The notes: generated from the letters alone by a model not told the origin. DNA of 64,000 bases from Candidatus Binataceae bacterium (GCA_963803045.1 CAWDLC010000014.1:50003-114002), one strand, 5' to 3'; counted from the stretch's first letter, positions 2,993 to 48,818 are shown. Program-made: numbers and translations.

Positions 2993-4543
2993 ATGGGTCT
3001 TAAAGAAAATCTCGAACAACTCAAGCGACTCACGCGCGAGGCGGAGGCGGCCGGCGGCCAGGAGCGGCTCAAGAAGCAACGCGCACAGGGCCGCATGACC
3101 GCGCGCGAGCGGGTCGAGTTTCTCCTCGACCGTGATTCGTTCGTCGAACTCGACAAGTTCAAGACCCATCGAATCACCGACTTCGACATGGCGGAGAAGA
3201 AAATCCCCGGCGACGGCGTCGTGACGGGCTACGGCACGATCGACGGGCGGCAGGTGTGCATCTTCAGCCACGATTTCACGGTCTTCGGCGGCAGCCTGTC
3301 GGGCGCATTCGCGGAGAAGGTCTGCAAGGTGATGGACCTCGCGATGAAGACCGGATGCCCTGTGATCGGGCTCAACGACGGCAGCGGCGCGCGAATCCAG
3401 GAGGGCGTCGTGTCGCTGGCGGGCTACGCCGATATTTTTCTGCGCAACGTAATGGCGTCGGGAGTGGTCCCGCAAATTTCCGCGATCATGGGACCGTGCG
3501 CCGGCGGCGCGGTGTATTCGCCGGCGATGACGGACTTCATCGTGATGGTGCGCGATACCTCGTACATGTTCATCACCGGCCCCGACGTGATCCGGGCGAC
3601 CACGCACGAAGAGGTCACGATGCAGGAACTCGGCGGCGCAGATACGCATAGCCAGAAGTCGGGCGTGTGCCATCTCGAGGCCGACGACGACGCGGGCGCG
3701 CTCGCAATGATCCGCGAACTGCTTTCGTTTATTCCGTCGAACAATGTCGATGATCCGCCGTTCGTCGCGGGCGGCGACGATCCCGCCCGGATCGATGCCG
3801 CGCTCGATTCGATCGTCCCCGAAAATCCCAACAAGGCCTACGACATGGGCGAGATCATCCGGCGCGCGGTCGATGACGGCCAGTTTCTGGAAGTGCAGAA
3901 GGACTACGCGCACAACATGCTGATCGGGTTCGCGCGGCTCGGCGGCTACTCGGTTGGCGTGGTCGCGAATCAGCCGGCCTTTCTGGCGGGATGCCTCGAT
4001 ATCGACTCGTCGGTGAAAGCGGCGCGATTCGTGCGCTTCTGCGACGCGTTCAATATTCCACTTGTCACGTTCGTGGACGTGCCGGGCTTTCTGCCCGGTA
4101 CGGCGCAGGAGTTCGCCGGAATTATCAGGCATGGCGCGAAACTGCTCTACGCGTTCTGCGAGGCCACCGTGCCCAAGGTGACGGTGATAACGCGCAAGGC
4201 TTACGGCGGTGCGTACGACGTCATGTCGTCTAAGCATATTCGCGGCGATTTCAACTTTGCGTATCCGAGCGCCGAGATCGCGGTGATGGGACCCGAGCAG
4301 GCCATCAACATTGTTTTTCGCAACGAGATCGCCAAGGCCAAAGACGCAGTCGCCGAGCGCGCGCGGCTGACCGAGGACTATCGCAAGACTTTTGCCAATC
4401 CGTTCAAGGCGGCTGAGCTTGGCTATATCGATGAAGTGATCATGCCGCGCGACACGCGTCCCAGGCTGATCGGCGCATTGAAGGCGCTCGCGAACAAGCG
4501 CGACAAGAATCCGCCGCGCAAGCACGGCAATATTCCACTTTGA
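2993..4543 (+). CDS. pccB: acyl-CoA (propionyl/methylmalonyl-CoA) carboxyltransferase beta subunit
   Basis: 516-aa ORF with carboxyltransferase hallmarks: [70 protein letters not shown]. It is the first gene of a biotin-carboxylase, BCCP and mutase operon. Confidence 0.9.
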
Positions 4544-4605
4544 CCAAAAGTGTCCCGAGCAGCACTGGTCGCGCGCGACAACGGAGCGCGGTCTTAACAT
4601 TGGGT

Positions 4606-30430: not shown

Positions 30431-30832
30431 CTAGCTCCTTGGCGCGTGCTCGTTAAGGTATTTGCGCAGCGATTCGACACCCCAGTTGCGAGCCGTGGTT
30501 TGCCAGCCGCCCGGGAATCTCTCCTCGATCCACCATTGGTTTTTATCAAGCCTGATGTGGACCTTGCTGTTGTTCCCGGCCGCGGCCATGCCGCGTTGGC
30601 CAAATTGGTCCAAACGCAGGCCGAACTCCTTCAGGAGTTCCTGCCAGTAAGTCCAAGTTAAGCGAGAGACGGTCGTCCGTGAAAAAATGTTCTGGGCCGT
30701 GATCGCGTAGCGCTCCATGAGCGCCTCTTGCAAGTGGGCCGCAGCCGCAGTCTCGGCCTCTGGCGCCGCGGCTTCATTATCGGTGTTCTTCCTACGCAGT
30801 GCGATCATTCGGAGTGCGTCTTCGGTTTTCAT
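30431..30832 (-). CDS. hypothetical protein
   Basis: 133 aa with a strong GGAGG 8 nt upstream of the ATG. I recognise no family. Confidence 0.6.
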   Translation of the reverse strand: MKTEDALRMIALRRKNTDNEAAAPEAETAAAAHLQEALMERYAITAQNIFSRTTVSRLTWTYWQELLKEFGLRLDQFGQRGMAAAGNNSKVHIRLDKNQWWIEERFPGGWQTTARNWGVESLRKYLNEHAPRS

Positions 30833-41478: not shown

Positions 41479-44004
41479 TCATTTGCTGCTTAGTAATGAC
41501 GGCGGTCGCTTTGTCACCCAGTTGGTCGCCTGATCGTACGCATGCGCCAGCTGCATGCAGGCAAGCTCGGCGTGATTCGGGCCTACAATCTGAATACCCA
41601 TCGGCAATCCGCGTTCGTTGAAGCCGGCTGGTGCGCTGAGCGCCGGGCAACCCGACATCGAGATCGGAATCATCACTTCCATCCAGCGATGGTAAGTATC
41701 CATGGATGCGCCGCCGACCTCTTTCGGCCAATGGATCGTCGCGTCAAACGGGAAAACCTGACCCCCGGGCGCGATCATGAAATCATACTTCTCAAAGAAT
41801 GTGCGCACCGCTTGATACCACGCCGTGCGCACCGTGAGCGCGTCTGCGATTTCGAACGCGCCGGCCTTGAGGCCATTTTCGATCTCCCACCGCAGTTCGG
41901 GTTTCATCAGCACACGCTTGGCGGGATCGGCATAGAGCCCGTTGAGGAGCGCTCCAATCTGCCACGCTCGAATCTTGAGCCAGCTATCCCAGACCGGCTC
42001 CGGCGGATAGTCGGGTATCGCTTCTTCCACCGTGCATCCGATCGCCTCGAACACTTTGAGCGCGCCTTTGCAGAGATCGAGCACGCCTGATTCGAACGGG
42101 ATGTGTCCGCCAAAGTCTCCGACCCATCCGATACGCGTCCCTTTGAAGTCGCGCCCGAGCGGTCCCGCAAACCCAGCCGGATCCTGGCGAATCGAAAGTG
42201 GCGTGCGCGCGTCGTATCCGGCAATCACCGATAGAAACATCGCGAGATCCGGCACCGTCCGCGCCATCGGGCCGTGCACCAAAATCGACGGCATGAAGAC
42301 CTCGTTGAACAACGATGGAACCCGGCCGAACGAAGTTCGCAATCCGAACACGTTGTTGAACGCGGCGGGATTTCGGATCGACCCGCCGTTATCGCTGCCG
42401 TCTGCAACCGGCAACATCCCGAGCGCGAGCGCGACTGCCGCGCCGCCGCTGCTGCCGCCGCACGTCTTCGATTGATCGTACGCGTTGAGCGTAGTGCCAA
42501 AGACGGGATTGTAGGTTTGCGATCCCAAGCCAAACTCCGGGACGTTTGTTTTCCCAATAATGATCCCGCCCGCAAGCCTGATTCGCTCGACCAGGATCGA
42601 GTCCGCAGCCGGAACCAGATTTTTGAACAGTGGCGAGCCCATCGTGGTGCGGATGCCCCTGGTCGGCTCGAGATCCTTGATCGCATGCGGAAAGCCGTGC
42701 ATCCAGCCAAGATGGTCGCCGCGAGCCAGTTGCGCGTCTCGGGTTTTGGCCTGGTCGAGCAGATCCCGGCGAGGCAACAGCGAAACGATCGCGTTGACGC
42801 GCGGGTTCACGCGATCGACGTGATCGAGATACGCGTTCATCACCTCTACGCACGAGACCCGCTTCGACTTGATCGCGCTCGAAAGAGCGTTTGCACCAAG
42901 GCTGACAAGTTCGGGGATCTCGGCCGCCTTGTTCATGATTTCGTTGTGGAGCTCGCTGGCTTGCGCTACATTCCATCCAATTTCGGCCATCAGTCTCGCC
43001 CTGGCGCCACGCTCCGCTGCATCGGGACCGCTCGCGTTGCCAAGTTTCGCGCGCATCGCAATTCCCTGTAGGATGGCGGCGGCACGAAAAAACGAGAACG
43101 CCACAAAGAACATTAGGTCGGGGACGCTGGTCCGGCCGACGCGCCGGCAGTATGCGGCGACAAATTCCTCCTCGCTCGGAATGCCAGCCGCCTTCAGATC
43201 GATGCCTTGAAAACTCAACACGCCGTCGATGCCGGGCGGGCAATGGTAAGGACGGCAGGCCCACCCCAGGTCGCCCAGCGGATGCCCGAGCGTCGAGAGC
43301 TCCCAGTCAAGCACGGCGACCACGCGCGGCTCGACTGGATGAAAGACGATGTTCTCCATGCGATAGTCGCCGTGCGCGATCGTCGTGTCGTCAGCCGCGG
43401 GGATATGCCGCCCAAGCCATTCGATCAGGCGATCCATCTCCGCGATCTCGTCAATTTTCGAGGCTTCGTACTGCTTCGACCAGCGCGCAACCTGACGCGC
43501 GACGTACGCATCCGGCCGGCCGTAGTCGCCAAGTCCCACCGCGCGAAAGTCAACCTTGTGCAACCGCGCAAGCACATCGTTCATCGAGTCGTAGCACGCC
43601 GCGCGTTCGTGCGGGCTCGAGTCGGGCATCATCGGATCGCGCATGATACGCCCCTCGACAAAGTCCATCACAAAGAATGCGGTGCCGATGACGCCGGCGT
43701 CCTTGCACAGGATGTGCACGCCCGGGACCGGCACATCGGTTGCCGCCAGCGCCTTGATGATTCGAAATTCGCGCTCGACCTGATGAGCCGACTGGAGCAG
43801 AGTACCCGGCGGTTTCTTGCGCATGACGAAACGCGCGTCCGGAGTTGAAAGCAGGTAAGTGGGATTCGACTGCCCGCCGATGAACTGTCGAACCGCAAGC
43901 GGACCGCGAAAATTTGGCATCTGCCCGCTCAGATAGTGTTCGAGGCGGGCTTCATCGAAACGATTATTCGCGCGGACCGGTGTGACGTCATCCTCGATCG
44001 ACAT
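41479..44004 (-). CDS. fusion protein: N-terminal APH-family phosphotransferase + C-terminal amidase-signature amidase
   Basis: 841 aa. Residues about 1-345 carry HGDYRMENIVFHP and AVLDWELSTLGHPLGDLGW. Residues about 355-841 carry the amidase signature GGSSGGAAVALA...DGSDNGGSIRNPA and GKTNVPEFG. The junction reads ...GWNVAQASELHNEIMNKAAEIPELVSL.... Confidence 0.8.
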   Translation of the reverse strand: MSIEDDVTPVRANNRFDEARLEHYLSGQMPNFRGPLAVRQFIGGQSNPTYLLSTPDARFVMRKKPPGTLLQSAHQVEREFRIIKALAATDVPVPGVHILCKDAGVIGTAFFVMDFVEGRIMRDPMMPDSSPHERAACYDSMNDVLARLHKVDFRAVGLGDYGRPDAYVARQVARWSKQYEASKIDEIAEMDRLIEWLGRHIPAADDTTIAHGDYRMENIVFHPVEPRVVAVLDWELSTLGHPLGDLGWACRPYHCPPGIDGVLSFQGIDLKAAGIPSEEEFVAAYCRRVGRTSVPDLMFFVAFSFFRAAAILQGIAMRAKLGNASGPDAAERGARARLMAEIGWNVAQASELHNEIMNKAAEIPELVSLGANALSSAIKSKRVSCVEVMNAYLDHVDRVNPRVNAIVSLLPRRDLLDQAKTRDAQLARGDHLGWMHGFPHAIKDLEPTRGIRTTMGSPLFKNLVPAADSILVERIRLAGGIIIGKTNVPEFGLGSQTYNPVFGTTLNAYDQSKTCGGSSGGAAVALALGMLPVADGSDNGGSIRNPAAFNNVFGLRTSFGRVPSLFNEVFMPSILVHGPMARTVPDLAMFLSVIAGYDARTPLSIRQDPAGFAGPLGRDFKGTRIGWVGDFGGHIPFESGVLDLCKGALKVFEAIGCTVEEAIPDYPPEPVWDSWLKIRAWQIGALLNGLYADPAKRVLMKPELRWEIENGLKAGAFEIADALTVRTAWYQAVRTFFEKYDFMIAPGGQVFPFDATIHWPKEVGGASMDTYHRWMEVMIPISMSGCPALSAPAGFNERGLPMGIQIVGPNHAELACMQLAHAYDQATNWVTKRPPSLLSSK

Positions 44005-44438
44005 TATTTCGTGCTCCCGATCTGAGGTTCCAGCACGCAGCTCTGGATCTCGGTCTGTGCCGCATCAGTATCGATCGGATTGAGATGGGGAACGGCAGTC
44101 AGCCAGCCCCATCCAAGTTCTTCTCTGATGTAGTAAACACGCGGCTCGGTTTGGATTTCCACTTCGTCGGCGGTGTCAGTCTGGATGCTGCAAACGACCT
44201 GCTCCCCGGCGGGAACGATGAAAGCATGATAGCCGCCCGGACCGATCCGCGCCGTGTCCTCACCGCATGTAACCGCGGGGCGAAGCGCCGATCCCCCGTA
44301 GCTGTAAGGCCTGTACACGTAGATCACCGCGTTGCCCGGAGGTGCCGGGATTTTTTCAAACGGTTGGCCCTGGACCGCGCATCCGATTGCAAAAACGCCG
44401 ACGACGCCGGGCAAGAATACCAGAAGCCGGCGATTCAT
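44004..44438 (-). CDS. lipoprotein, DUF2846-like
   Basis: Signal peptide with lipobox AIGC. AVIYVYRP...GPGGYHAFIVPAGEQVV resembles DUF2846. Its stop overlaps the fusion gene's ATG by 1 nt. Confidence 0.5.
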   Translation of the reverse strand: MNRRLLVFLPGVVGVFAIGCAVQGQPFEKIPAPPGNAVIYVYRPYSYGGSALRPAVTCGEDTARIGPGGYHAFIVPAGEQVVCSIQTDTADEVEIQTEPRVYYIREELGWGWLTAVPHLNPIDTDAAQTEIQSCVLEPQIGSTK

Positions 44439-45031
44439 TGTCCAAGCGAAGCAGTTGGAGATTTGCCCGCGATGGCGACGGCATCCGCCAACCTGGCCTC
44501 ATCGCTATAGAGCTTTTGATCGATCCTGGCCCTGACCGCGGCGCGCGCAGCGTCGTCCACCTCCTTGTGGGTGGGATGCGAGTACAGGTTGTAGGATTTC
44601 GAAACGTGCTCCTTGGCGGTGTAGTCGCCGAGTATCCTGTCGCCGTCGCTGATCGACAAAGACGCAAACGCGGTCACGCCAATATCGCCGAGCGGAGCAC
44701 CGACCAGATTAGCCGGGTCGAGCGCGGAAACAATCAGTGGGACGTGATAGTCGTCGTGCGTCAATTCCTCGCGATAGGTGAATGTCACGGGTGAAGTGCT
44801 CGACAGGGACATCGCCACCGCGGGTGGAAGTTCAGTCGGGTCTCCGGCCACCAATCGCCCCTTGAATGGCAATGGATGCGCCGGCTCGCCGGCGACCTTG
44901 GGCGCGATTACAAGTTGCGATTGCGATTGAGACGCGCTGGCCGGTTGCGATTGTTCCGGTTGCTGAGTGCTGCATCCGAACGCGGCAGCCGCGGCAATGA
45001 AAAGCGCCGCGAGAGCAAATGTGTATCTCAT
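44435..45031 (-). CDS. hypothetical lipoprotein
   Basis: MRYTFALAALFIAAAAAFGCSTQQ (lipobox FGC), then a Ser/Gln-rich linker. ATGA overlap with the downstream gene. Confidence 0.6.
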   Translation of the reverse strand: MRYTFALAALFIAAAAAFGCSTQQPEQSQPASASQSQSQLVIAPKVAGEPAHPLPFKGRLVAGDPTELPPAVAMSLSSTSPVTFTYREELTHDDYHVPLIVSALDPANLVGAPLGDIGVTAFASLSISDGDRILGDYTAKEHVSKSYNLYSHPTHKEVDDAARAAVRARIDQKLYSDEARLADAVAIAGKSPTASLGQ

Positions 45032-45156
45032 GACATGTCGGCGTCGCGAGCCGGATACTCGGGATTGACTGATTCAATTCCTTGCGACGCCACGTAGCCA
45101 TAGTATCAGAAAATTCCGCCCTCCTTTACGACGCCGGTGTAGCGGGCTCATGCTCC

Positions 45157-45252
45157 TGGCGGAGGGGGGAGGGAGTCGAACCCTCCGGCGACAGTATTAG
45201 CCGCCAAGCCGGTTTTGAAGACCGGTAAGGCCACCGGGCCTTTTCCTCCTCC
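45157..45252 (-). tRNA. selC: tRNA-Sec (anticodon UCA)
   Basis: 96 nt on the minus strand, parsed as: GGAGGAGG-AA-AAGGCC-CGGT-GGCCUU-A-CCGGU-CUUCAAA-ACCGG-C-UUGGCGGCUAAUACUGUCGCCG-GAGGG-UUCGACU-CCCUC-CCCCCUCC-G-CCA. This gives an 8-bp acceptor (one A6-C67 mismatch) plus a 5-bp T stem, a 6-bp D stem with the 4-nt loop CGGU, anticodon loop CU-UCA-AA and a long variable arm. These are the bacterial tRNA-Sec hallmarks, and the D loop and anticodon loop match E. coli selC. Confidence 0.9.
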
Positions 45253-45261
45253 AGCCCTTAT

Positions 45262-45290
45262 TTATTAGGCACTTACGGCGATTCGCACAA
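45262..45290 (-). promoter_or_regulatory. candidate sigma70-type promoter for selC
   Basis: On the minus strand: TTGTGC (45290-45285), a 17-nt spacer, TAATAA (45267-45262), then 9 nt to the tRNA 5' end. Confidence 0.3.
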
Positions 45291-45690
45291 CCCGCAGATC
45301 GGCCAGAGTGCCCACAAACTGCCCACAATTTCTGGATTCGGTTTCCGTGCGGCCAGTGCAAGCGACGATACGAGGACTTTCGAGGCCGCGTCGCAGGGCA
45401 GCCAGCCGCTCGATGACGCGATTGGGAACTCACGAACTGTCGGACTACGAGTAAACGACGACCTGGAGCGGCGCGCGACGCCGCTTAAGGCTTCTCAGCG
45501 AGTGCGCTTTGCGCCGCCGCCGGAGGGCGCGGCGATGGCATCACCCGACGGGCCGCCGCCGGTTCCGTTGCTGCTGGTCTGGCCGACTTCCGACAGCGAG
45601 CGCATAATTTGCGCATCGTAAAACTGGCCACCGCCGGTAAGATACAGCGGTATCGAAGGGTTGGTACACTCGTGCGCGATCTGGTCGATT

Positions 45691-45906
45691 TCACGGACCC
45701 TTTTCGCGAGACAGCGCCCTTCTTAACCTGATCTGTTGAAAGATCGCCAGCAGGACGACCGGAGCTAATACTACGGCGGTCATGATTGCTCCGACTTTGA
45801 GCGAAACTATTCGGCCCACCAACAGGTATGCGAACGCAGGAGTAAAGACCGCCATCAACGCAAGCCTGAAAATCATGCCGAGAACGGTCGCAGGTTTTTT
45901 TGCCAT
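45691..45906 (-). CDS. small membrane protein (2 TM), possibly the 5' part of a longer frameshifted gene reaching 45495
   Basis: MAKKPATVLGMIFRLALMAVFTPAFAYLLVGRIVSLKVGAIMTAVVLAPVVLLAIFQQIRLRRALSREKGP. A protein-like, start-less frame (EIDQIAHECTNPSIPLYLTGGGQFYDAQIMRSLSEVGQ...KRTR*, stop 45495-45497) continues in the +1-shifted frame. Confidence 0.5.
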   Translation of the reverse strand: MAKKPATVLGMIFRLALMAVFTPAFAYLLVGRIVSLKVGAIMTAVVLAPVVLLAIFQQIRLRRALSREKGP

Positions 45907-45918
45907 ACGGAAACTCGA

Positions 45919-46299
45919 TCAGTCCATTTGAAGCCGGTTCAGCGCAAACAGTAATCTGCCATACCGTAGAAACTGGACGGTCATGAAGGCGTTCAAAAAG
46001 AAAACCAGTAGCACCAGCAAGGGCTGACTGAGCCACAGCATAGCCTTGATGGTCACAATCTCCGCAAGACTAGCCGCAATGACCGAGTAAAAGAGCCTTC
46101 GTTCTGCCGCGCATTTGGCCGAGAAGGCGGATACGGCGCCGCAGAGGCCGAGCAGGATTGGCATTGCTACGCTTCGCAGGATCGTGAAGGGGAACGGGCT
46201 CCTCAATCCCCAATATTGTACCCGATACGCGAGCGCGAACTGCAGCGCGAATACCAGCAAACCCAGCGCAATATAAATTCCCGTCCTTAGTGATCGCAT
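45919..46299 (-). CDS. small membrane protein (about 4 TM), orphan
   Basis: 126 aa with four hydrophobic segments, lower GC than the surroundings, and no family I recognise. Confidence 0.55.
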   Translation of the reverse strand: MRSLRTGIYIALGLLVFALQFALAYRVQYWGLRSPFPFTILRSVAMPILLGLCGAVSAFSAKCAAERRLFYSVIAASLAEIVTIKAMLWLSQPLLVLLVFFLNAFMTVQFLRYGRLLFALNRLQMD

Positions 46300-46323
46300 A
46301 ATGCCAAATGTCCCGCCTTCGTG

Positions 46324-46533
46324 TTACCGCTTTGGCTGTAGCGGAGGAGTCGGCGCCTGCGGCGTTAGGGCGCCTGGAGGAAGATCTTCACCGAAACCAG
46401 GGAACTTCCCGCCATGAGCCTGCGAGTAGCAGCCGCCTAAACCGGCGAGTTCAGTTCCGCATGTGCCGAATGCAAGCGCGCACGCCGGCAGCCCGCCCCC
46501 GAGGCAAAGAGAGCCATAGACCCCGCAACCCAC
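46324..46533 (-). other. Cys/Gly-rich open frame (candidate small peptide/protein; start unresolved)
   Basis: Counting from GTG 46533: VGCGVYGSLCLGGGLPACALAFGTCGTELAGLGGCYSQAHGGKFPGFGEDLPPGALTPQAPTPPLQPKR*. The frame stays open upstream to beyond 46821 (...PLYDWILGVSLDLIPSEGSPFQLIQSIERPPPPEFHAAPSGSLSFPLCEGLFLSLTAPAVV...) but has no ATG and no clear SD. It lies 24 nt upstream of the 4-TM ORF and is divergent from the radical SAM gene. Confidence 0.25.
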
Positions 46534-46821
46534 GACCGCGGGCGCAGTTAAGCTAAGAAACAGCCCTTCGCAGAGGGGGAAACTTAGCGACCCGGACGGT
46601 GCAGCGTGGAACTCCGGCGGAGGAGGCCGCTCAATGCTTTGGATGAGCTGAAACGGGGACCCTTCACTCGGAATCAGATCGAGGGAGACACCCAAGATCC
46701 AGTCATACAGCGGGTGGCGTTTGTGGAGCAATCTGGCGCGGGATCGGAGGGCTGCTGCCGCCGCCACCGAGGCGGGTGGAGGATTCGCGCACGCCGCGAG
46801 AGCCGTGGTAAGCTTAAAATT

Positions 46822-47730
46822 ATGGCAGCCACGCACCACGGCGCACTTCGCGAGCCGACGGACTTCGGCAGGCGCGAGTTTCGTGGGGCACTGGTCAATG
46901 TGACCAACGTCTGCAACCTCGAATGCCGCCACTGCTTCGTTTACCGCGACGGCAATCCCAACCTCGCGCGCGACAAGATGGACGACGCGACCATGCTCCA
47001 TCAGTTGCGCACGCTGCGCGACAAGCACGGCATCAAGTCGATGCTGTTCATGGGCGGCGAGCCCATGATTCGCAAGCGCTTGGTATTCGAGGCGATGAAA
47101 CTGTTCGAGCGCTCCTCGATCGTGACCAACGGGACCTACGGGATTCCGTCCGTTCCCGGCCATCTGGTCACCGTGTCACTCGACGGACCGGAGCGGATCA
47201 ACGATCCGATCCGCGGCGAGGGCGTGTTCCGCAAGGTCAAGGAGGCGATCTTCGCGCGCGATCCTCGCGACGGCACGACCGTCATCATCCAGATGACGAT
47301 CACCAGGGAGAACGCGCCGGGACTGGAGGAATTCGTCGAAGAAGTGAAGGACTGGCCGGTCGACGGCGTCGCAGTCACGTTTCATGTCCCCTCCAAGGGA
47401 GAGCACGGCCCGCTTGCCTGGGATGACCTGCGCGAGCGCGACGCGGTTATCGACCGGGTCATCGCGCTCAAGCGGAAGAACCCGACGCTGGTCAAGAGCA
47501 ACGTCGAGACGCTGGAAATGATGAAGTCCGACCGCGCGCTCAATTACACGGGCGAGCGCGGTGAGCATTGCGCGCTGCGCGCGATGCTGCCGCTTTACAT
47601 GGGCGATGGCGGGAATTTCGAGCGAACCTTCTGCTGCTACGGCAACGATGTCGACTGCGCGCGCTGTGGCGCCTACGGCGTTTTCAACAGCGCGTACCAT
47701 CGGATGAAGGGCGACCACGCGGAAGACTGA
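46822..47730 (+). CDS. radical SAM enzyme with C-terminal Cys cluster (possible auxiliary Fe-S, SPASM/twitch- or HpnH-C-terminal-like)
   Basis: 302 aa from ATG 46822. VNVTNVCNLECRHCFVY is the CxxxCxxC motif, followed by MLFMGGEPM and VSLDGPERINDPIRGEGVF. The C-terminal pattern C-x20-CC-x6-C-x2-C is HCALRAMLPLYMGDGGNFERTFCCYGNDVDCARCGAYG. Confidence 0.8.
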   Translation: MAATHHGALREPTDFGRREFRGALVNVTNVCNLECRHCFVYRDGNPNLARDKMDDATMLHQLRTLRDKHGIKSMLFMGGEPMIRKRLVFEAMKLFERSSIVTNGTYGIPSVPGHLVTVSLDGPERINDPIRGEGVFRKVKEAIFARDPRDGTTVIIQMTITRENAPGLEEFVEEVKDWPVDGVAVTFHVPSKGEHGPLAWDDLRERDAVIDRVIALKRKNPTLVKSNVETLEMMKSDRALNYTGERGEHCALRAMLPLYMGDGGNFERTFCCYGNDVDCARCGAYGVFNSAYHRMKGDHAED

Positions 47731-47771
47731 GGTTCCCTGGGCGCACGTTCGTCAGATCGAGGTTGGAGCAA

Positions 47772-48818
47772 TTGAAGACTGGAATCATCGGCGCACGCGG
47801 CGCCGGGAAATCAACCGTATTTCACGCACTGACAGGACTCGCGCCGATTCCGGGCACGGCCGAGGGCCGCAATCGTGCGCGCCCGGGACAAATCAAGGTC
47901 GCGGATCCGCGTCTCGATTTTCTTGAATCGGCGTACGGTTCGAAGAAAAAGATCCCGGTCGAGCTCACCATCCTCGATTTCGCGCCAAATCCCAAGGAGC
48001 AGAAGGAGGGCGCCGCGCTCGATCCGAGTCTGCTGCCGCTGGTGCGCGACATGGACGCACTGCTGATCGTGATTCCGCAATTCGCCGGCATGGAAAAAGA
48101 TCTGGTCGCGACTCTCGAAAGTATCGAGGGCGAGCTGGTGTTCGCGGACTTCGATCAAGCCGAACGCCGCCTCGAGCGGCTAAAGAAGGAGAAGGGCGGC
48201 AGCGACTTCGAACGCGCGGCGCTCGAGAAAGTGATTGCATGGCTCGGCGACGGCAAAGCACTGAGACTGCTCGAACTGACGGCGCAGGAGACCCAGGCAT
48301 TTTCGAGCTTCGGGTTTCTTTCGCGAAAGCCCGCGCTGGTCACCGTCAACTGCGAGATGGAACGCGCCGCCGCCGATATCACCGACGCCGAGCGTGCCGC
48401 CATCCGCGCGCACGGACTCGAGGTGTTCAGGCTCGCGGCCGCTTTCGAGTCGGAATTATGGGAACTTGACGAGGCCGGCCAAAAGGAGATGCTCAAAGAT
48501 GCGGGACTCGACGCGCCCGCGCGCGATCGGCTGATCGGCGCGCTCTACAATCACCTCGGGCTCATCACCTTCTACACCGCCGCCGAGCCCGAGGCGCATG
48601 CATGGTCGCTCCGCCGCGGCGAGTCGGCGCTCGATGCCGCCGGCGTAATCCACACTGATATCGCGCGTGGATTCATCCGGGCCGAAGTTGTCAGTTACGA
48701 GGATTTTGCCATCCACAAGTCCGACGCGAAGGTCAAAGAGGCCGGCAAACTCAGACTCGAAGGCCGCGACTACGTGATGCGCGACGGCGACATGATTCAC
48801 GTCCGCTTCAAGGTCTGA
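47772..48818 (+). CDS. ychF: YchF/OLA1-family P-loop NTPase
   Basis: TTG start with GGAG 5 nt upstream: (M)KTGIIGARGAGKSTVFHALTG. The C-terminus FYTAAEPEAHAWSLRRGESALDAAGVIHTDIARGFIRAEVVSYEDF...GKLRLEGRDYVMRDGDMIHVRFKV tracks E. coli YchF closely. Confidence 0.9.
   Translation: MKTGIIGARGAGKSTVFHALTGLAPIPGTAEGRNRARPGQIKVADPRLDFLESAYGSKKKIPVELTILDFAPNPKEQKEGAALDPSLLPLVRDMDALLIVIPQFAGMEKDLVATLESIEGELVFADFDQAERRLERLKKEKGGSDFERAALEKVIAWLGDGKALRLLELTAQETQAFSSFGFLSRKPALVTVNCEMERAAADITDAERAAIRAHGLEVFRLAAAFESELWELDEAGQKEMLKDAGLDAPARDRLIGALYNHLGLITFYTAAEPEAHAWSLRRGESALDAAGVIHTDIARGFIRAEVVSYEDFAIHKSDAKVKEAGKLRLEGRDYVMRDGDMIHVRFKV

What the first reader, a model, noticed from the sequence alone, without database searches (positions are those of the whole stretch)
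45495..47730. Low-GC islet beside selC: radical SAM (Cys-cluster C-terminus) divergent from a Cys/Gly-rich ORF and orphan small membrane proteins; candidate RiPP/bacteriocin-like module
The stretch from about 45.5 to 46.8 kb is visibly less GC-rich than its flanks (by eye, not computed) and contains nothing I can assign to a family. On the minus strand, in one apparent unit, three elements follow each other. First is an open frame whose last about 70 codons are Cys/Gly-rich and hydrophobic (six Cys counting the upstream PLCEG: GCGVYGSLCLGGGLPACALAFGTCGTELAGLGGCY), followed by a Pro-rich tail. Then, 24 nt later, comes a 4-TM orphan, and then a 2-TM orphan. Divergently transcribed is a radical SAM enzyme (CNLECRHC) with a C-terminal C-x20-CC-x6-C-x2-C cluster, a pattern suggestive of an auxiliary Fe-S (SPASM/twitch-like) domain. 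A Cys-rich peptide, an rSAM with an auxiliary cluster and small membrane (immunity or export?) proteins together form the layout of sactipeptide/ranthipeptide-type RiPP loci. However, this peptide, its tail and the membrane partners do not resemble any class I know. Weak points: the Cys-rich frame has no ATG or SD (only an internal GTG). The rSAM may instead be a housekeeping or HpnH-like enzyme co-transcribed with ychF. Indel errors in this assembly could be hiding the true start.
Basis: inference. Interest (0 to 1): 0.7.

Follow-up and report, generated by a model that had tools for sequence, protein, structure and literature searches.

The report
Decayed Rhs-type toxin cassette with immunity genes
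The Cys/Gly-rich frame is the beheaded tail of an Rhs-type inter-bacterial toxin, and the two small membrane proteins after it are probably its immunity proteins. The radical SAM enzyme next door is an unrelated gene that a rearrangement placed there, so this is not a RiPP cluster.

Summary

**Radical SAM gene (46822-47730, +).** It has five invariant C-terminal Cys and folds like SPASM/twitch enzymes. It is a stand-alone gene. None of about 90 related loci has a conserved neighbour. None has a homologue of the Cys-rich frame or of the membrane proteins.

**Cys/Gly-rich frame (46324-46762, -).**
- It is a real protein domain with six conserved Cys, and no Pfam or NCBIfam family matches it.
- In relatives it is always the C-terminal tip of polymorphic toxins. 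Some carry a canonical Rhs core end.
- The shared N-terminal part also occurs fused to phospholipase A2, Ntox44 and other tips.
- The window copy has lost its 5' half, starting about 10 nt from the radical SAM unit's homology block. It also carries a 1-nt frameshift.

**The membrane proteins.** The 4-TM and 2-TM proteins follow this tip in four separate locus types, down to 41-46% identity. At one conserved locus they are swapped out together with it. They also occur alone, without the toxin. A fragment of the next toxin module follows them at 45507-45677.

**Verdict.** This is a decayed orphan Rhs-type toxin and immunity cassette in a Binatus-like genome. It is a new member of a known kind. 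A membrane-active mechanism is inferred, not shown.

The parts
45157..45252 (-). tRNA-SeC (selC). Context only; it bounds the islet on one side.
   Evidence: ARAGORN. Rfam RF01852, 72.7 bits. No duplicated tRNA end or att-like repeat nearby.
45495..45680 (-). Fragment of the next toxin module: Rhs core-end-like motif plus the start of the Gly-rich linker (..ECTNPSIPLYLTGGGQFYDAQIMRSLSEVGQTSSNGTGGGPSGDAIAAPSGGG..). It ends at an in-frame stop at 45495-45497. The ATG at 45605 is where many family ORFs start.
   Evidence: tblastn: 32 family proteins match 45513-45686, most at 54-87% identity. phmmer: 38 family members hit residues 8-64 of this frame, with E down to 1e-20. There is no significant homology beyond the stop. 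L109 and L110 have the same kind of fragment after the 2-TM gene.
45691..45906 (-). 71-aa protein with 2 TM helices. Candidate second immunity subunit.
   Evidence: ORF; hydrophobic span 6-62. It is conserved directly after the 4-TM gene in L094-L097 (53%), L102/L103 (74%), L104 (49%), L109 (93%) and L110 (41%, E 4e-16). dN/dS is 0.7-1.1, so constraint is weak except at the two ends. No Pfam or NCBIfam family.
45919..46299 (-). 126-aa protein with 4 TM helices. Candidate immunity protein.
   Evidence: 35 homologues at 62-100% identity. The few that carry a taxon name are Candidatus Binatus; none has a Pfam family. dN/dS is 0.28-0.33. A homologue at 46% identity (E 4e-34) follows a 44%-identical copy of the toxin tip in L110. 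It is lost together with the tip where the tip is replaced by phospholipase A2.
46324..46650 (-). Cys/Gly-rich C-terminal toxin domain (CT). It has six conserved Cys and a predicted hydrophobic helical hairpin, followed by a Pro-rich tail. The stop codon is at 46324-46326.
   Evidence: Homologues P0156, P0157, P0162-P0173, P0215 and P0223 all carry it at the C-terminus. P0173 and P0215 have it behind a canonical Rhs core end. dN/dS is 0.44-0.53, and differences by codon position are 26/15/32. AF2 model: pLDDT 74, helices 30-40, 42-56 and 60-84. No Pfam or NCBIfam hit and no PDB fold match.
46651..46762 (-). Remnant of the conserved pre-toxin region (..GGSS-PPIPRQ / LLHKRHPLYDWILG..). A 1-nt insertion at 46732, relative to L103 and L109, shifts the frame.
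   Evidence: blastn to L109 reaches 46762 and blastn to L103 reaches 46652. Protein-level homology runs to about 46734. The three-way alignment shows the extra A. Two short-read assemblies, L100 and L101, are identical to the window here, so this is probably not an assembly error.
46763..46773 (.). Junction of about 10 nt between the truncated toxin gene and the radical SAM unit.
   Evidence: Toxin homology ends at 46762. Radical SAM homology to L014, L015, L016 and L064 begins at 46774-46784 (alignments). In L109 an IS transposase (rve, E 5e-28) lies upstream of the truncated toxin gene.
46774..46821 (+). Conserved 5' flank of the radical SAM gene, containing TGGTAAGCT 7 nt before the ATG. 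This may be an extended -10 element and may imply a leaderless mRNA (inference).
   Evidence: Alignment of 12 Binataceae loci.
46822..47730 (+). Radical SAM enzyme of 302 aa, with CX3CX2C plus five invariant C-terminal Cys. Unrelated neighbour; substrate unknown.
   Evidence: Pfam finds the Radical_SAM core only; there is no SPASM, RRE or DUF3463 hit. NCBIfam finds no family above cut-off. 619 homologues; those listed are 63-95% identical. AF2 pLDDT 80. Best PDB folds are SkfB, anSME, SuiB and MoaA, TM about 0.5. The antisense ORF 46324-47163 over its 5' end is a shadow frame.
47772..48818 (+). ychF (redox-regulated ATPase). Context only; adjacent to the radical SAM gene in this genome alone.
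   Evidence: Pfam YchF-GTPase_C 1.7e-32 and TIGR00092 6e-63. Absent from the flanks of all other radical SAM loci. The TTG start at 47772 was read from the sequence.

Best explanation
The stretch 45495-46762 on the minus strand is a displaced and partly decayed orphan module of an Rhs-type polymorphic toxin system, in a Candidatus Binatus-like genome.

**The toxin family (shown by comparison).**
- Intact relatives have, in order, an Rhs/YD core end, a Gly-rich linker, a conserved pre-toxin stretch (..F.DLFGG..PP.PRQ..H.RHP.Y..ILG..LTPTQ.S) and then an exchangeable C-terminal toxin domain.
- The window keeps only the last 137-146 codons of one such gene, namely the Cys/Gly-rich toxin domain with a frameshifted stub of the pre-toxin stretch.
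- It has no start codon and no delivery part, so it is probably not made as a working exported toxin (inferred).

**The immunity genes (inferred).** The two intact genes that follow encode a 4-TM and a 2-TM inner-membrane protein. They are the cognate immunity proteins. They have been kept because they protect the cell against the same toxin delivered by neighbouring cells.

**The end of the module (shown by comparison).** After the immunity genes comes the beginning of the next module of a former array, a core-end fragment cut short by a stop codon.

**Mechanism (inferred).** The toxin domain is a hydrophobic, Gly-rich helical hairpin, possibly held by disulfides between its six conserved Cys. 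It acts on the cytoplasmic membrane of target cells by pore formation or depolarisation. The membrane immunity proteins block it within the membrane.

**The radical SAM gene (shown by comparison).** It is a separate single-gene unit. It was joined to the broken toxin gene by a rearrangement, possibly IS-mediated, and takes no part in the module.
For: **Polymorphic architecture**
- Homologues share the N-terminal and pre-toxin region but carry different tips. These are the Cys/Gly tip (P0156, P0157), phospholipase A2 (P0158 with CCRRHDNCY; P0159) and Ntox44 behind YD/Rhs-like sequence (P0160).
- An exhaustive search found 84 clusters. Their tips include PLA2 (5), Gly-zipper (4), Ntox44 (2), 3D, glucosaminidase and JAB domains. 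Two members have RHS_repeat hits.
- The Cys/Gly tip is always C-terminal. In P0173 and P0215 it follows a canonical Rhs core end (..YYSPRLQRFLSEDPLGL.. DPSGL).

**Sharp switch point**
- L103 and L107 are syntenic: nitrilase, rhodanese, toxin, small genes, a 132-170-aa ORF on the opposite strand, deaminase.
- By eye they are about 90% identical in DNA through the toxin N-terminal region, up to DLTPTQ(A/E)S. After that point the alignment is random.
- The Cys/Gly tip with the 4-TM and 2-TM genes is replaced by a PLA2 tip with a different 105-aa protein whose sequence is largely hydrophobic (by eye).

**Co-inheritance of tip and membrane pair**
- They occur together in the window, L102/L103 (88% nt), L109 (91% nt) and L110. 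In L110 the tip is 44% identical, the 4-TM homologue 46% and the 2-TM homologue 41%.
- L110 has the same order as the window, including a core-end fragment after the 2-TM gene. It also has a preceding module with a different tip and a HEAT-repeat protein.

**Coding constraint**
- dN/dS is 0.44-0.53 for the tip and 0.28-0.33 for the 4-TM gene. The tip has no stops or indels in three lineages.

**Truncation in the window**
- Homology to intact genes ends at 46762, with a 1-nt insertion at 46732. The radical SAM homology block begins at 46774.

**Orphan immunity**
- The 4-TM gene, with or without the 2-TM gene, occurs without any toxin hit beside an esterase in L094-L098. It also occurs without one in L104-L106.

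**Published parallels**
- Orphan rhs-CT/immunity modules lack the N-terminal trafficking part and keep a homologous stretch for recombination (PMC4436062).
- The Rhs effector Tse5-CT depolarises membranes. Its immunity protein Tsi5 is an integral membrane protein with two predicted TM regions (PMC9637101).
Against: - No toxicity or protection has been measured.
- The tip matches no known toxin family and no solved fold, so the membrane-pore mechanism is an inference. It rests on composition, a medium-confidence model (pLDDT 74, pTM 0.46) and the membrane location of the partner proteins.
- Six conserved Cys are unusual for a membrane-inserting hairpin.
- No Rhs core, PAAR, VgrG or other secretion gene was found by similarity in the 64-kb window. 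How the family is delivered in Binatia is unknown.
- The 238-245-aa forms at the rhodanese locus have an ATG and no Rhs shell upstream. Some members may therefore be free-standing proteins rather than orphans.
- The 2-TM gene shows little constraint in close comparisons (dN/dS 0.7-1.1).
- dN/dS is 0.45 between the two truncated copies, window and L109. This leaves open that the truncated tip is still translated.
- The membrane pair is found more often without the toxin than with it (8 of 12 locus types). A housekeeping role is not excluded.
Confidence: 0.8

Rival explanations
1. First reader's reading. The radical SAM enzyme installs thioether or other crosslinks on the Cys-rich product, and the membrane proteins export it or give immunity. 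This would be a sactipeptide/ranthipeptide-like RiPP locus.
For: The radical SAM protein is divergently adjacent and has an auxiliary Cys cluster. Its nearest solved folds include the RiPP maturases SkfB and SuiB. The partner is Cys-rich.
Against: - The adjacency exists only in this strain (the window and L099-L101).
- None of the other radical SAM loci has the Cys-rich domain or the membrane proteins. They share no conserved neighbour and show no excess of Cys-rich small ORFs.
- The other loci with the tip have no radical SAM gene.
- The radical SAM protein has no RRE. Only about 30 residues precede its CX3CX2C motif.
- The two units meet at a truncation junction.
Confidence: 0.03
2. The truncated tip is still expressed from an internal start (for example TTG 46731 or 46695). 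With the membrane proteins it then acts inside the cell as a toxin-antitoxin-like pair, or it serves as a reservoir cassette that can recombine into a full-length rhs gene elsewhere in the genome.
For: - The frame stays open for 137 codons. dN/dS is 0.45 even against L109, which is also truncated.
- L109 has an ATG-initiated 163-aa version.
- A paper on Salmonella reports that orphan Rhs elements act as type II toxin-antitoxin modules (PMC7043789, title and abstract listed). Recombination of orphans into main rhs genes is documented (PMC4436062).
Against: There is no Shine-Dalgarno sequence or consensus promoter. The frameshift removes the part of the conserved stretch that would support recombination. 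No rhs gene lies within 64 kb.
Confidence: 0.2
3. The 4-TM and 2-TM proteins are ordinary lineage-specific membrane proteins with a housekeeping role. Toxin tips merely tend to land next to them.
For: In L094-L098 the pair sits at a conserved site between an esterase and a 4HBT thioesterase, with no toxin. It is found without the tip in 8 of 12 locus types.
Against: - At the syntenic rhodanese locus the pair is present only when the Cys/Gly tip is present. It is replaced when the tip is PLA2.
- Pair and tip are still adjacent at 41-46% identity, inside a multi-module toxin array.
- Immunity genes without a toxin are a known phenomenon (PMC10539506, abstract listed).
Confidence: 0.1
4. The Cys-rich frame is a chance open frame in GC-rich non-coding DNA.
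For: GC by codon position is 0.61/0.685/0.62, without the GC3 excess of the neighbouring genes. About 3% of random small ORFs in related GC-rich DNA have 6 or more Cys. There is no start codon.
Against: The frame has protein homologues in at least 17 clusters at 50% identity, with six conserved Cys. Its dN/dS is below 1, and substitutions are concentrated at third codon positions. The odd GC profile follows from the Gly/Ala/Pro/Cys-rich composition.
Confidence: 0.02

Closest known systems
Orphan rhs-CT/immunity modules of Rhs polymorphic toxin loci (E. coli, Salmonella, Serratia)
   Same: - An exchangeable C-terminal toxin tip lies behind a conserved core end, with the immunity gene or genes directly downstream.
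- Copies lack the N-terminal delivery part and a start codon.
- Modules occur in tandem, each beginning with a core-end fragment.
- Immunity genes also occur without a toxin.
   Different: - The window copy is not downstream of a full-length rhs gene; none was found in 64 kb.
- It is further damaged by a frameshift and abuts an unrelated gene.
- The family has an extra conserved Gly-rich linker and a pre-toxin stretch between the core end and the tip.
- The host is an uncultured Binatia lineage with no known delivery system.
Tse5-CT / Tsi5 (Pseudomonas aeruginosa RhsP1 pore-forming effector and its immunity protein)
   Same: An Rhs tip with no enzymatic signature and hydrophobic helices. The immunity protein is a small integral membrane protein (Tsi5 has two predicted TM regions) (PMC9637101).
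   Different: - No sequence or fold similarity was detected.
- The present tip has six conserved Cys.
- Two membrane proteins follow it rather than one.
- Its activity is untested.
CdiA-CT(EC93)-type ionophore toxins with membrane CdiI immunity, and the glycine-zipper depolarising toxin EsxX
   Same: Polymorphic-toxin tips that dissipate membrane potential. Each is paired with its own cognate immunity protein; a membrane location for CdiI is implied by the cited passages but not stated in them. Gly-zipper-like helices are present (PMC11630599; PMC12744356, abstract listed).
   Different: The delivery systems differ (type V, type VII). CDI ionophores are predicted to be five-helix bundles; here only a helical hairpin is predicted. 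No homology was found.
Sactipeptide/ranthipeptide RiPP clusters (SkfB, PapB, StsB type)
   Same: A radical SAM enzyme of the SPASM/twitch branch lies next to a Cys-rich ORF and small membrane proteins, in this window only.
   Different: There is no RRE, no SPASM profile hit and no co-conserved precursor, protease or transporter. The Cys-rich sequence is a domain of larger toxins.
SPASM/twitch radical SAM enzymes (SkfB, anSME, SuiB, MoaA), as the nearest relatives of the neighbouring gene
   Same: CX3CX2C core, partial TIM barrel and a C-terminal Cys cluster. These are the best PDB fold matches (E 3e-7 to 1e-5, TM 0.47-0.58).
   Different: - Identity is only 14-19%.
- The protein is 302 aa, with a short C-terminal domain and the motif C-x20-CC-x6-C-x2-C.
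- No curated family reaches its cut-off.
- It is 63-95% identical across phyla, with no conserved neighbour.

Membership tests
Rhs-type polymorphic toxin system (orphan CT/immunity module) | The conserved N-terminal region is fused to alternative, unrelated C-terminal domains, with a sharp switch point. | tested here: met
   P0156/P0157 against P0158/P0159 (PLA2) and P0160 (Ntox44). There are 84 clusters with varied tips. The L103/L107 DNA alignment collapses right after DLTPTQxS.
Rhs-type polymorphic toxin system (orphan CT/immunity module) | The tip occurs behind an Rhs/YD-repeat core end (PxxxxDPxGL-type motif). | tested here: met
   P0173 and P0215 carry ..RYY(S/N)P.LQRF(L/I)S.DP.G.. DP(S/L)GL before the Cys/Gly tip. 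P0163, P0164, P0177 and P0212 carry a YD-like variant. Two family members have RHS_repeat Pfam hits. The window itself keeps only a core-end fragment, at 45507-45677.
Rhs-type polymorphic toxin system (orphan CT/immunity module) | The gene or genes immediately downstream co-vary with the tip (cognate immunity). | tested here: met
   The 4-TM and 2-TM genes follow the Cys/Gly tip in four locus types, down to 41-46% identity. They are replaced when the tip is PLA2.
Rhs-type polymorphic toxin system (orphan CT/immunity module) | An orphan copy lacks the delivery region and translation start but keeps a stub of the conserved region. | tested here: met
   Homology starts at 46762 within the pre-toxin stretch. 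There is no ATG or SD, and an extra frameshift lies at 46732.
Rhs-type polymorphic toxin system (orphan CT/immunity module) | The orphan lies downstream of a full-length rhs gene in the same locus. | tested here: not met
   tblastn found no Rhs core in the 64-kb window. The module lies between selC and an unrelated gene, so it is a displaced remnant rather than part of a working locus.
Rhs-type polymorphic toxin system (orphan CT/immunity module) | The tip is toxic and the downstream protein neutralises it. | not testable with these tools
   This needs expression and protection assays.
Pore-forming / membrane-depolarising toxin tips (Tse5-CT, CDI ionophores, Gly-zipper toxins) | Sequence or fold membership in a described family. 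| tested here: not met
   Pfam gave no hit for this tip, Gly-zipper models included, and NCBIfam gave none either. There is no PDB fold match (best E 5.6). The claim is 'works like', not 'is a member'.
Pore-forming / membrane-depolarising toxin tips (Tse5-CT, CDI ionophores, Gly-zipper toxins) | Hydrophobic helical membrane-insertion element, with a membrane-embedded immunity protein. | tested here: inconclusive
   The predicted helices are 30-40, 42-56 and 60-84, at pLDDT 74. One Kyte-Doolittle segment passes the threshold. The partners have 4 and 2 TM helices. No functional data exist.
Sactipeptide/ranthipeptide RiPP cluster | The radical SAM maturase has a SPASM or twitch domain. | tested here: inconclusive
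   Five invariant C-terminal Cys and SPASM/twitch-like best folds. Neither the SPASM profile (PF13186) nor any NCBIfam SPASM/twitch family reaches its threshold.
Sactipeptide/ranthipeptide RiPP cluster | A RiPP recognition element (PqqD-like) in the maturase or a partner protein. | tested here: not met
   No such Pfam or NCBIfam hit. Only about 30 residues precede CX3CX2C.
Sactipeptide/ranthipeptide RiPP cluster | A precursor peptide gene is co-conserved next to the maturase. | tested here: not met
   None of the other radical SAM loci has a homologue of the Cys-rich part. There is no conserved neighbour and no enrichment of Cys-rich ORFs.
HpnH / DUF3463 radical SAM | C-terminal DUF3463 domain and a hopanoid gene context. 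| tested here: not met
   No DUF3463 hit at E of 0.1 or below. The neighbourhoods are unrelated.

The most novel reading that the evidence does not exclude
The Cys/Gly-rich tip may define an undescribed family of small, disulfide-stapled helical-hairpin membrane toxins, neutralised by a two-subunit (4-TM plus 2-TM) membrane immunity complex. The 238-245-aa ATG-initiated forms sit at a conserved rhodanese-adjacent locus and start exactly at the Rhs core end, with no Rhs shell. They could be free-standing secreted bacteriocin-like proteins that evolved from Rhs tips. That would be a shell-free way of deploying polymorphic toxin tips in Binatia.
Probability: 0.25. Interest if true: 0.55.

Novelty: new member of a known kind. 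Interest (0 to 1): 0.35.

Why it matters
- **It removes a false lead.** The radical SAM gene beside a Cys-rich ORF is an accident of rearrangement, not a RiPP cluster.
- **It shows how such false leads arise.** A beheaded toxin gene, an antisense shadow ORF over a GC-rich gene and a neighbouring enzyme can together look like a biosynthetic cluster.
- **It adds to what is known of Binatia.**
  - It documents polymorphic-toxin warfare in an uncultured soil and peat lineage.
  - It supplies an unannotated toxin-tip family with six conserved Cys.
  - It supplies an unannotated pair of small membrane proteins as candidate immunity factors, a pair that can be tested directly.
- **It flags the radical SAM gene.** This is a strongly conserved, uncharacterised, stand-alone family of possible interest in its own right.

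Tried and rejected
- **GC by codon position.** This suggested the Cys-rich frame was non-coding (0.61/0.685/0.62). Comparative data overturned it. The profile reflects the Gly/Ala/Pro/Cys-rich composition.
- **Rfam scan of 44500-47200.** Only tRNA-SeC was found. There is no riboswitch or sRNA in the 520-bp gap.
- **Consensus promoter and terminator scan.** No promoter-like site was found, and the single terminator-like hit lies inside the tRNA-SeC gene. It is uninformative for this phylum.
- **Repeat search for att-like duplications of the tRNA end or IS ends.** Only short chance repeats were found. There is no sign of site-specific integration at selC.
- **Circular-permutation idea.** The fragment after the 2-TM gene and the truncated tip might have been two halves of one gene, joined through a circular intermediate. 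A profile of the pre-toxin region does not match 45253-45500 (E 0.08-0.19 against a single target). The idea was dropped.
- **Conserved partner for the radical SAM gene.** Clustering of neighbours in 80 loci found only common catabolic families, by eye CoA-transferase, MFS, acyl-CoA dehydrogenase, SDR and acyl-CoA synthetase types (not scanned against Pfam). Each occurs in 7 loci or fewer. The amidase next to the gene in L007/L008, and the amidase fusion 3 kb away in the window, look coincidental.
- **Sequence search of the PDB with the radical SAM protein.** Only weak core matches, the best being SkfB at 1.5e-7.
- **Fold search with the tip model.** No match.
- **Rhs core elsewhere in the window.** None found.

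Full report
**1. What is in the sequence**

- The window is 61.6% GC. It carries tRNA-SeC at 45157-45252 on the minus strand.
- On the minus strand an open frame ends at 46324. A 126-aa ORF follows 24 nt later (46299-45919), then a 71-aa ORF (45906-45691). A hydropathy scan fits four and two TM helices respectively.
- On the plus strand lies a radical SAM gene. Homologues show that it starts at the ATG at 46822 and is 302 aa long. The 374-aa frame from the GTG at 46606 is an over-extension.
- The low-GC patch is real but covers only the two membrane genes. Positions 45691-46299 are 53.5% GC, the lowest 600-bp stretch of the 64 kb. The Cys-rich stretch is 63.3% GC.
- Pfam and NCBIfam give only the generic Radical_SAM core for the enzyme. 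They give nothing for the other three frames.

**2. The radical SAM gene is a stand-alone, strongly conserved gene**

- It has 619 homologues. The 120 best listed are 71-92% identical, and genome loci range from 63 to 95%. Hosts include Binataceae, Dehalococcoidia and Anaerolineae, marine Alphaproteobacteria (up to three copies per MAG), Acidimicrobiia, Thermoanaerobaculia and Myxococcota.
- The CX3CX2C motif and five C-terminal Cys (C250, C271, C272, C279, C282) are invariant.
- An AlphaFold model (pLDDT 80) is closest to SkfB, anSME, SuiB and MoaA, with TM about 0.5 and 14-19% identity. An auxiliary cluster of the twitch/SPASM kind is therefore plausible, although no SPASM, RRE or DUF3463 profile matches.
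- Gene neighbourhoods differ in every lineage examined.
- In 80 genome loci no neighbour family occurs in more than 7. Those that recur are, by eye, common catabolic families.
- Small ORFs with 5 or more Cys are no more frequent within 800 nt of the gene (5.8%) than further away (6.4%).
- tblastn of the 4-TM, 2-TM and Cys-rich sequences against the 93 radical SAM loci then held found nothing. The one exception is the part of the long minus-strand ORF that lies antisense to the radical SAM gene itself, which is a shadow frame.

**3. The region is a mosaic**

- DNA similarity of the window to the closest radical SAM loci (94-95%) runs only from 46774-46784 to about 47755.
- Similarity of the membrane-gene pair to other Binatus loci (75-77%) runs only from 45688 to 46321. 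In those loci the pair lies beside an esterase, with no radical SAM gene.
- The adjacency seen in the window recurs only in near-identical assemblies of the same strain, L099-L101.

**4. The turning point**

- Two metagenome contigs, L102 and L103, are 88% identical to window 45676-46652.
- In these contigs the Cys-rich frame is the 3' part of an intact 270-aa ORF, with a likely start at MRYMSQVG. That ORF lies directly upstream of the 4-TM and 2-TM genes. Rhodanese and nitrilase genes lie upstream of it.
- At first the GC profile by codon position (0.61/0.685/0.62) had suggested a non-coding frame. Comparison of the window, L103 and L109 shows otherwise. dN/dS is 0.44-0.53, differences peak at third codon positions (26/15/32), and there are no stops or indels over 130 codons.
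- For comparison, dN/dS is 0.28-0.33 for the 4-TM gene and 0.7-1.1 for the 2-TM gene.

**5. The protein is a polymorphic toxin**

- A search with the intact ORF found proteins that share its first 133 or so residues but end differently:
  - P0158 ends in a phospholipase A2 domain (CCRRHDNCY; PF05826).
  - P0159 ends in a PLA2-like domain.
  - P0160 is a fragment with YD/Rhs-like sequence, followed by the same linker and an Ntox44 toxin domain.
- An exhaustive search of 1.8 billion representatives found 84 clusters. Their Pfam content is PLA2, Gly-zipper, Ntox44, RHS_repeat, 3D, glucosaminidase and JAB.
- The Cys/Gly domain is always C-terminal. In P0173 and P0215 it sits behind a canonical Rhs core end.
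- L103 and L107/L108 are syntenic. By eye they are about 90% identical in DNA through rhodanese and the toxin's N-terminal half. Identity collapses right after DLTPTQ(A/E)S.
- Beyond that point L103 has the Cys/Gly tip with the 4-TM and 2-TM genes. L107 has the PLA2 tip with a different 105-aa protein whose sequence is largely hydrophobic.
- In L110, a Cys/Gly tip only 44% identical is followed by a 123-aa homologue of the 4-TM protein (46%, E 4e-34) and a 74-aa homologue of the 2-TM protein (41%, E 4e-16), and then by a core-end fragment. It is preceded by another module with a different tip and a HEAT-repeat protein.
- This is the architecture described for Rhs, CDI and Maf systems with orphan modules (PMC4436062).

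**6. The state of the window copy**

- Homology to L109 (91% nt) reaches 46762. The radical SAM unit's homology begins at 46774, so the two blocks meet within about 10 nt.
- Relative to both L103 and L109 the window has an extra A at 46732, which shifts the frame.
- Two independent short-read assemblies are identical here, so an assembly error is unlikely.
- In L109 an IS transposase (rve, E 5e-28) lies just upstream of the equally truncated gene. This hints at an IS-mediated origin of the break.
- Downstream of the 2-TM gene, 45677-45507 encodes ..TNPSIPLYLTGGGQFYDAQIMRSLSEVGQTSS... This sequence matches the core end and linker start of 38 family members, with E down to 1e-20. It stops at 45497-45495, and no significant homology follows.
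- The whole interval between selC and the radical SAM unit is therefore accounted for, in minus-strand order:
  - a truncated toxin gene;
  - two intact small membrane genes;
  - the stub of the next module.
- No Rhs core is present elsewhere in the window.

**7. How it most likely works**

- Shown by comparison: this is a toxin tip and its co-varying downstream genes, in a degenerate orphan state.
- Inferred:
  - The membrane proteins are the immunity proteins.
  - They are retained for protection against neighbours' toxin. The pair also occurs widely without any toxin (L094-L098 and L104-L106), as described for orphan immunity genes (PMC10539506, abstract listed).
  - The tip is predicted to be a hydrophobic, Gly-rich helical hairpin (pLDDT 74). 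Since its partners are membrane-embedded, it probably acts on the membrane.
- The closest functional analogue is Tse5-CT with Tsi5 (PMC9637101). CDI ionophores are also similar (PMC11630599).
- The tip has no sequence or fold relative among known families, so this is a 'works like' statement only.
- Whether the truncated tip is still translated is open. dN/dS is 0.45 between two truncated copies.

**8. Verdict**

- The 'unit of Cys-rich ORF plus membrane immunity-like proteins' is supported. The link to the radical SAM gene and the RiPP reading are not.
- The feature is a new member of a known kind: an orphan Rhs-type toxin and immunity cassette. It has an unannotated tip family and an unannotated immunity pair, in an uncultured lineage.
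- Interest is moderate to low for the window copy itself, which is debris plus immunity genes. It is somewhat higher for the intact family and for the uncharacterised radical SAM gene.

Noticed in passing
window 46774-47755; loci L009, L011, L014-L020, L064, L082, L090: Among eight closely related Binataceae genomes the radical SAM gene is 89-96% identical in DNA. The four more distant ones are 79-84% identical. In almost every pairwise comparison similarity is confined to the gene plus about 20-50 nt upstream and 25-100 nt downstream. The 5-kb flanks match in only one pair, L019/L020, and there at other positions. The gene thus sits in a different place in each genome. This suggests a single-gene unit that moves or is exchanged, or extreme local rearrangement.
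   Followed up: partly
window 46795-46824: A conserved TGGTAAGCT lies 7 nt before the radical SAM ATG in nearly all Binataceae copies, and no Shine-Dalgarno sequence is present. It looks like an extended -10 element placed so that the mRNA would be leaderless. This was read by eye only.
   Followed up: partly
window 44529-47977 against L099: A contig from another sample (L099) is identical to the window over 3.4 kb. This block covers the end of a lipoprotein gene, selC, the toxin debris, the membrane genes, the radical SAM gene and the start of ychF. On both sides the two sequences differ by 2-5%. Either this block was recently exchanged or swept between strains, or one assembly is a strain chimera.
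   Followed up: partly
L103 2158-2970, L107 8001-8738: At a conserved locus next to a divergent rhodanese gene, Binatus genomes carry 238-245-aa ATG-initiated toxin ORFs. These begin exactly at the Rhs core-end motif (MRY[MV]SQVGQQGW) and have no Rhs shell upstream. It is unclear whether they are orphans or free-standing small toxins.
   Followed up: partly
marine alphaproteobacterial MAGs: L054/L070/L084, L065/L066/L079, L061/L068/L074: Single MAGs carry three paralogues of the radical SAM gene, each 64-72% identical to the window protein. This is unusual for a housekeeping enzyme.
   Followed up: no
window 41479-44004 (-): An 841-aa fusion of an aminoglycoside-phosphotransferase-like kinase domain and an amidase. 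The kinase half was assigned from a homologue and from the L099 gene call, not scanned directly. In L099 it is split into several ORFs by indels, which may be long-read errors. An amidase also lies divergently next to the radical SAM gene in the Myxococcota loci L007/L008. That is probably coincidence.
   Followed up: no
window 30431-30832 (-): A second low-GC patch (about 54% GC, 30.45-31.4 kb) holds a 133-aa ORF. It was not searched against any family library.
   Followed up: no
window 44004-45031 (-): Two overlapping ORFs of 144 and 198 aa lie on the 3' side of selC. By eye both have lipoprotein-like N-termini. The first has a weak, sub-threshold DUF2846 hit. Neither reaches any family cut-off.
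   Followed up: no
L024-L026, about 4000-4575: Three Dehalococcoidia loci have a 123-aa ORF with eight Cys in CxxC pairs 400-600 nt upstream of the radical SAM gene. It is restricted to that clade and was not examined further.
   Followed up: no
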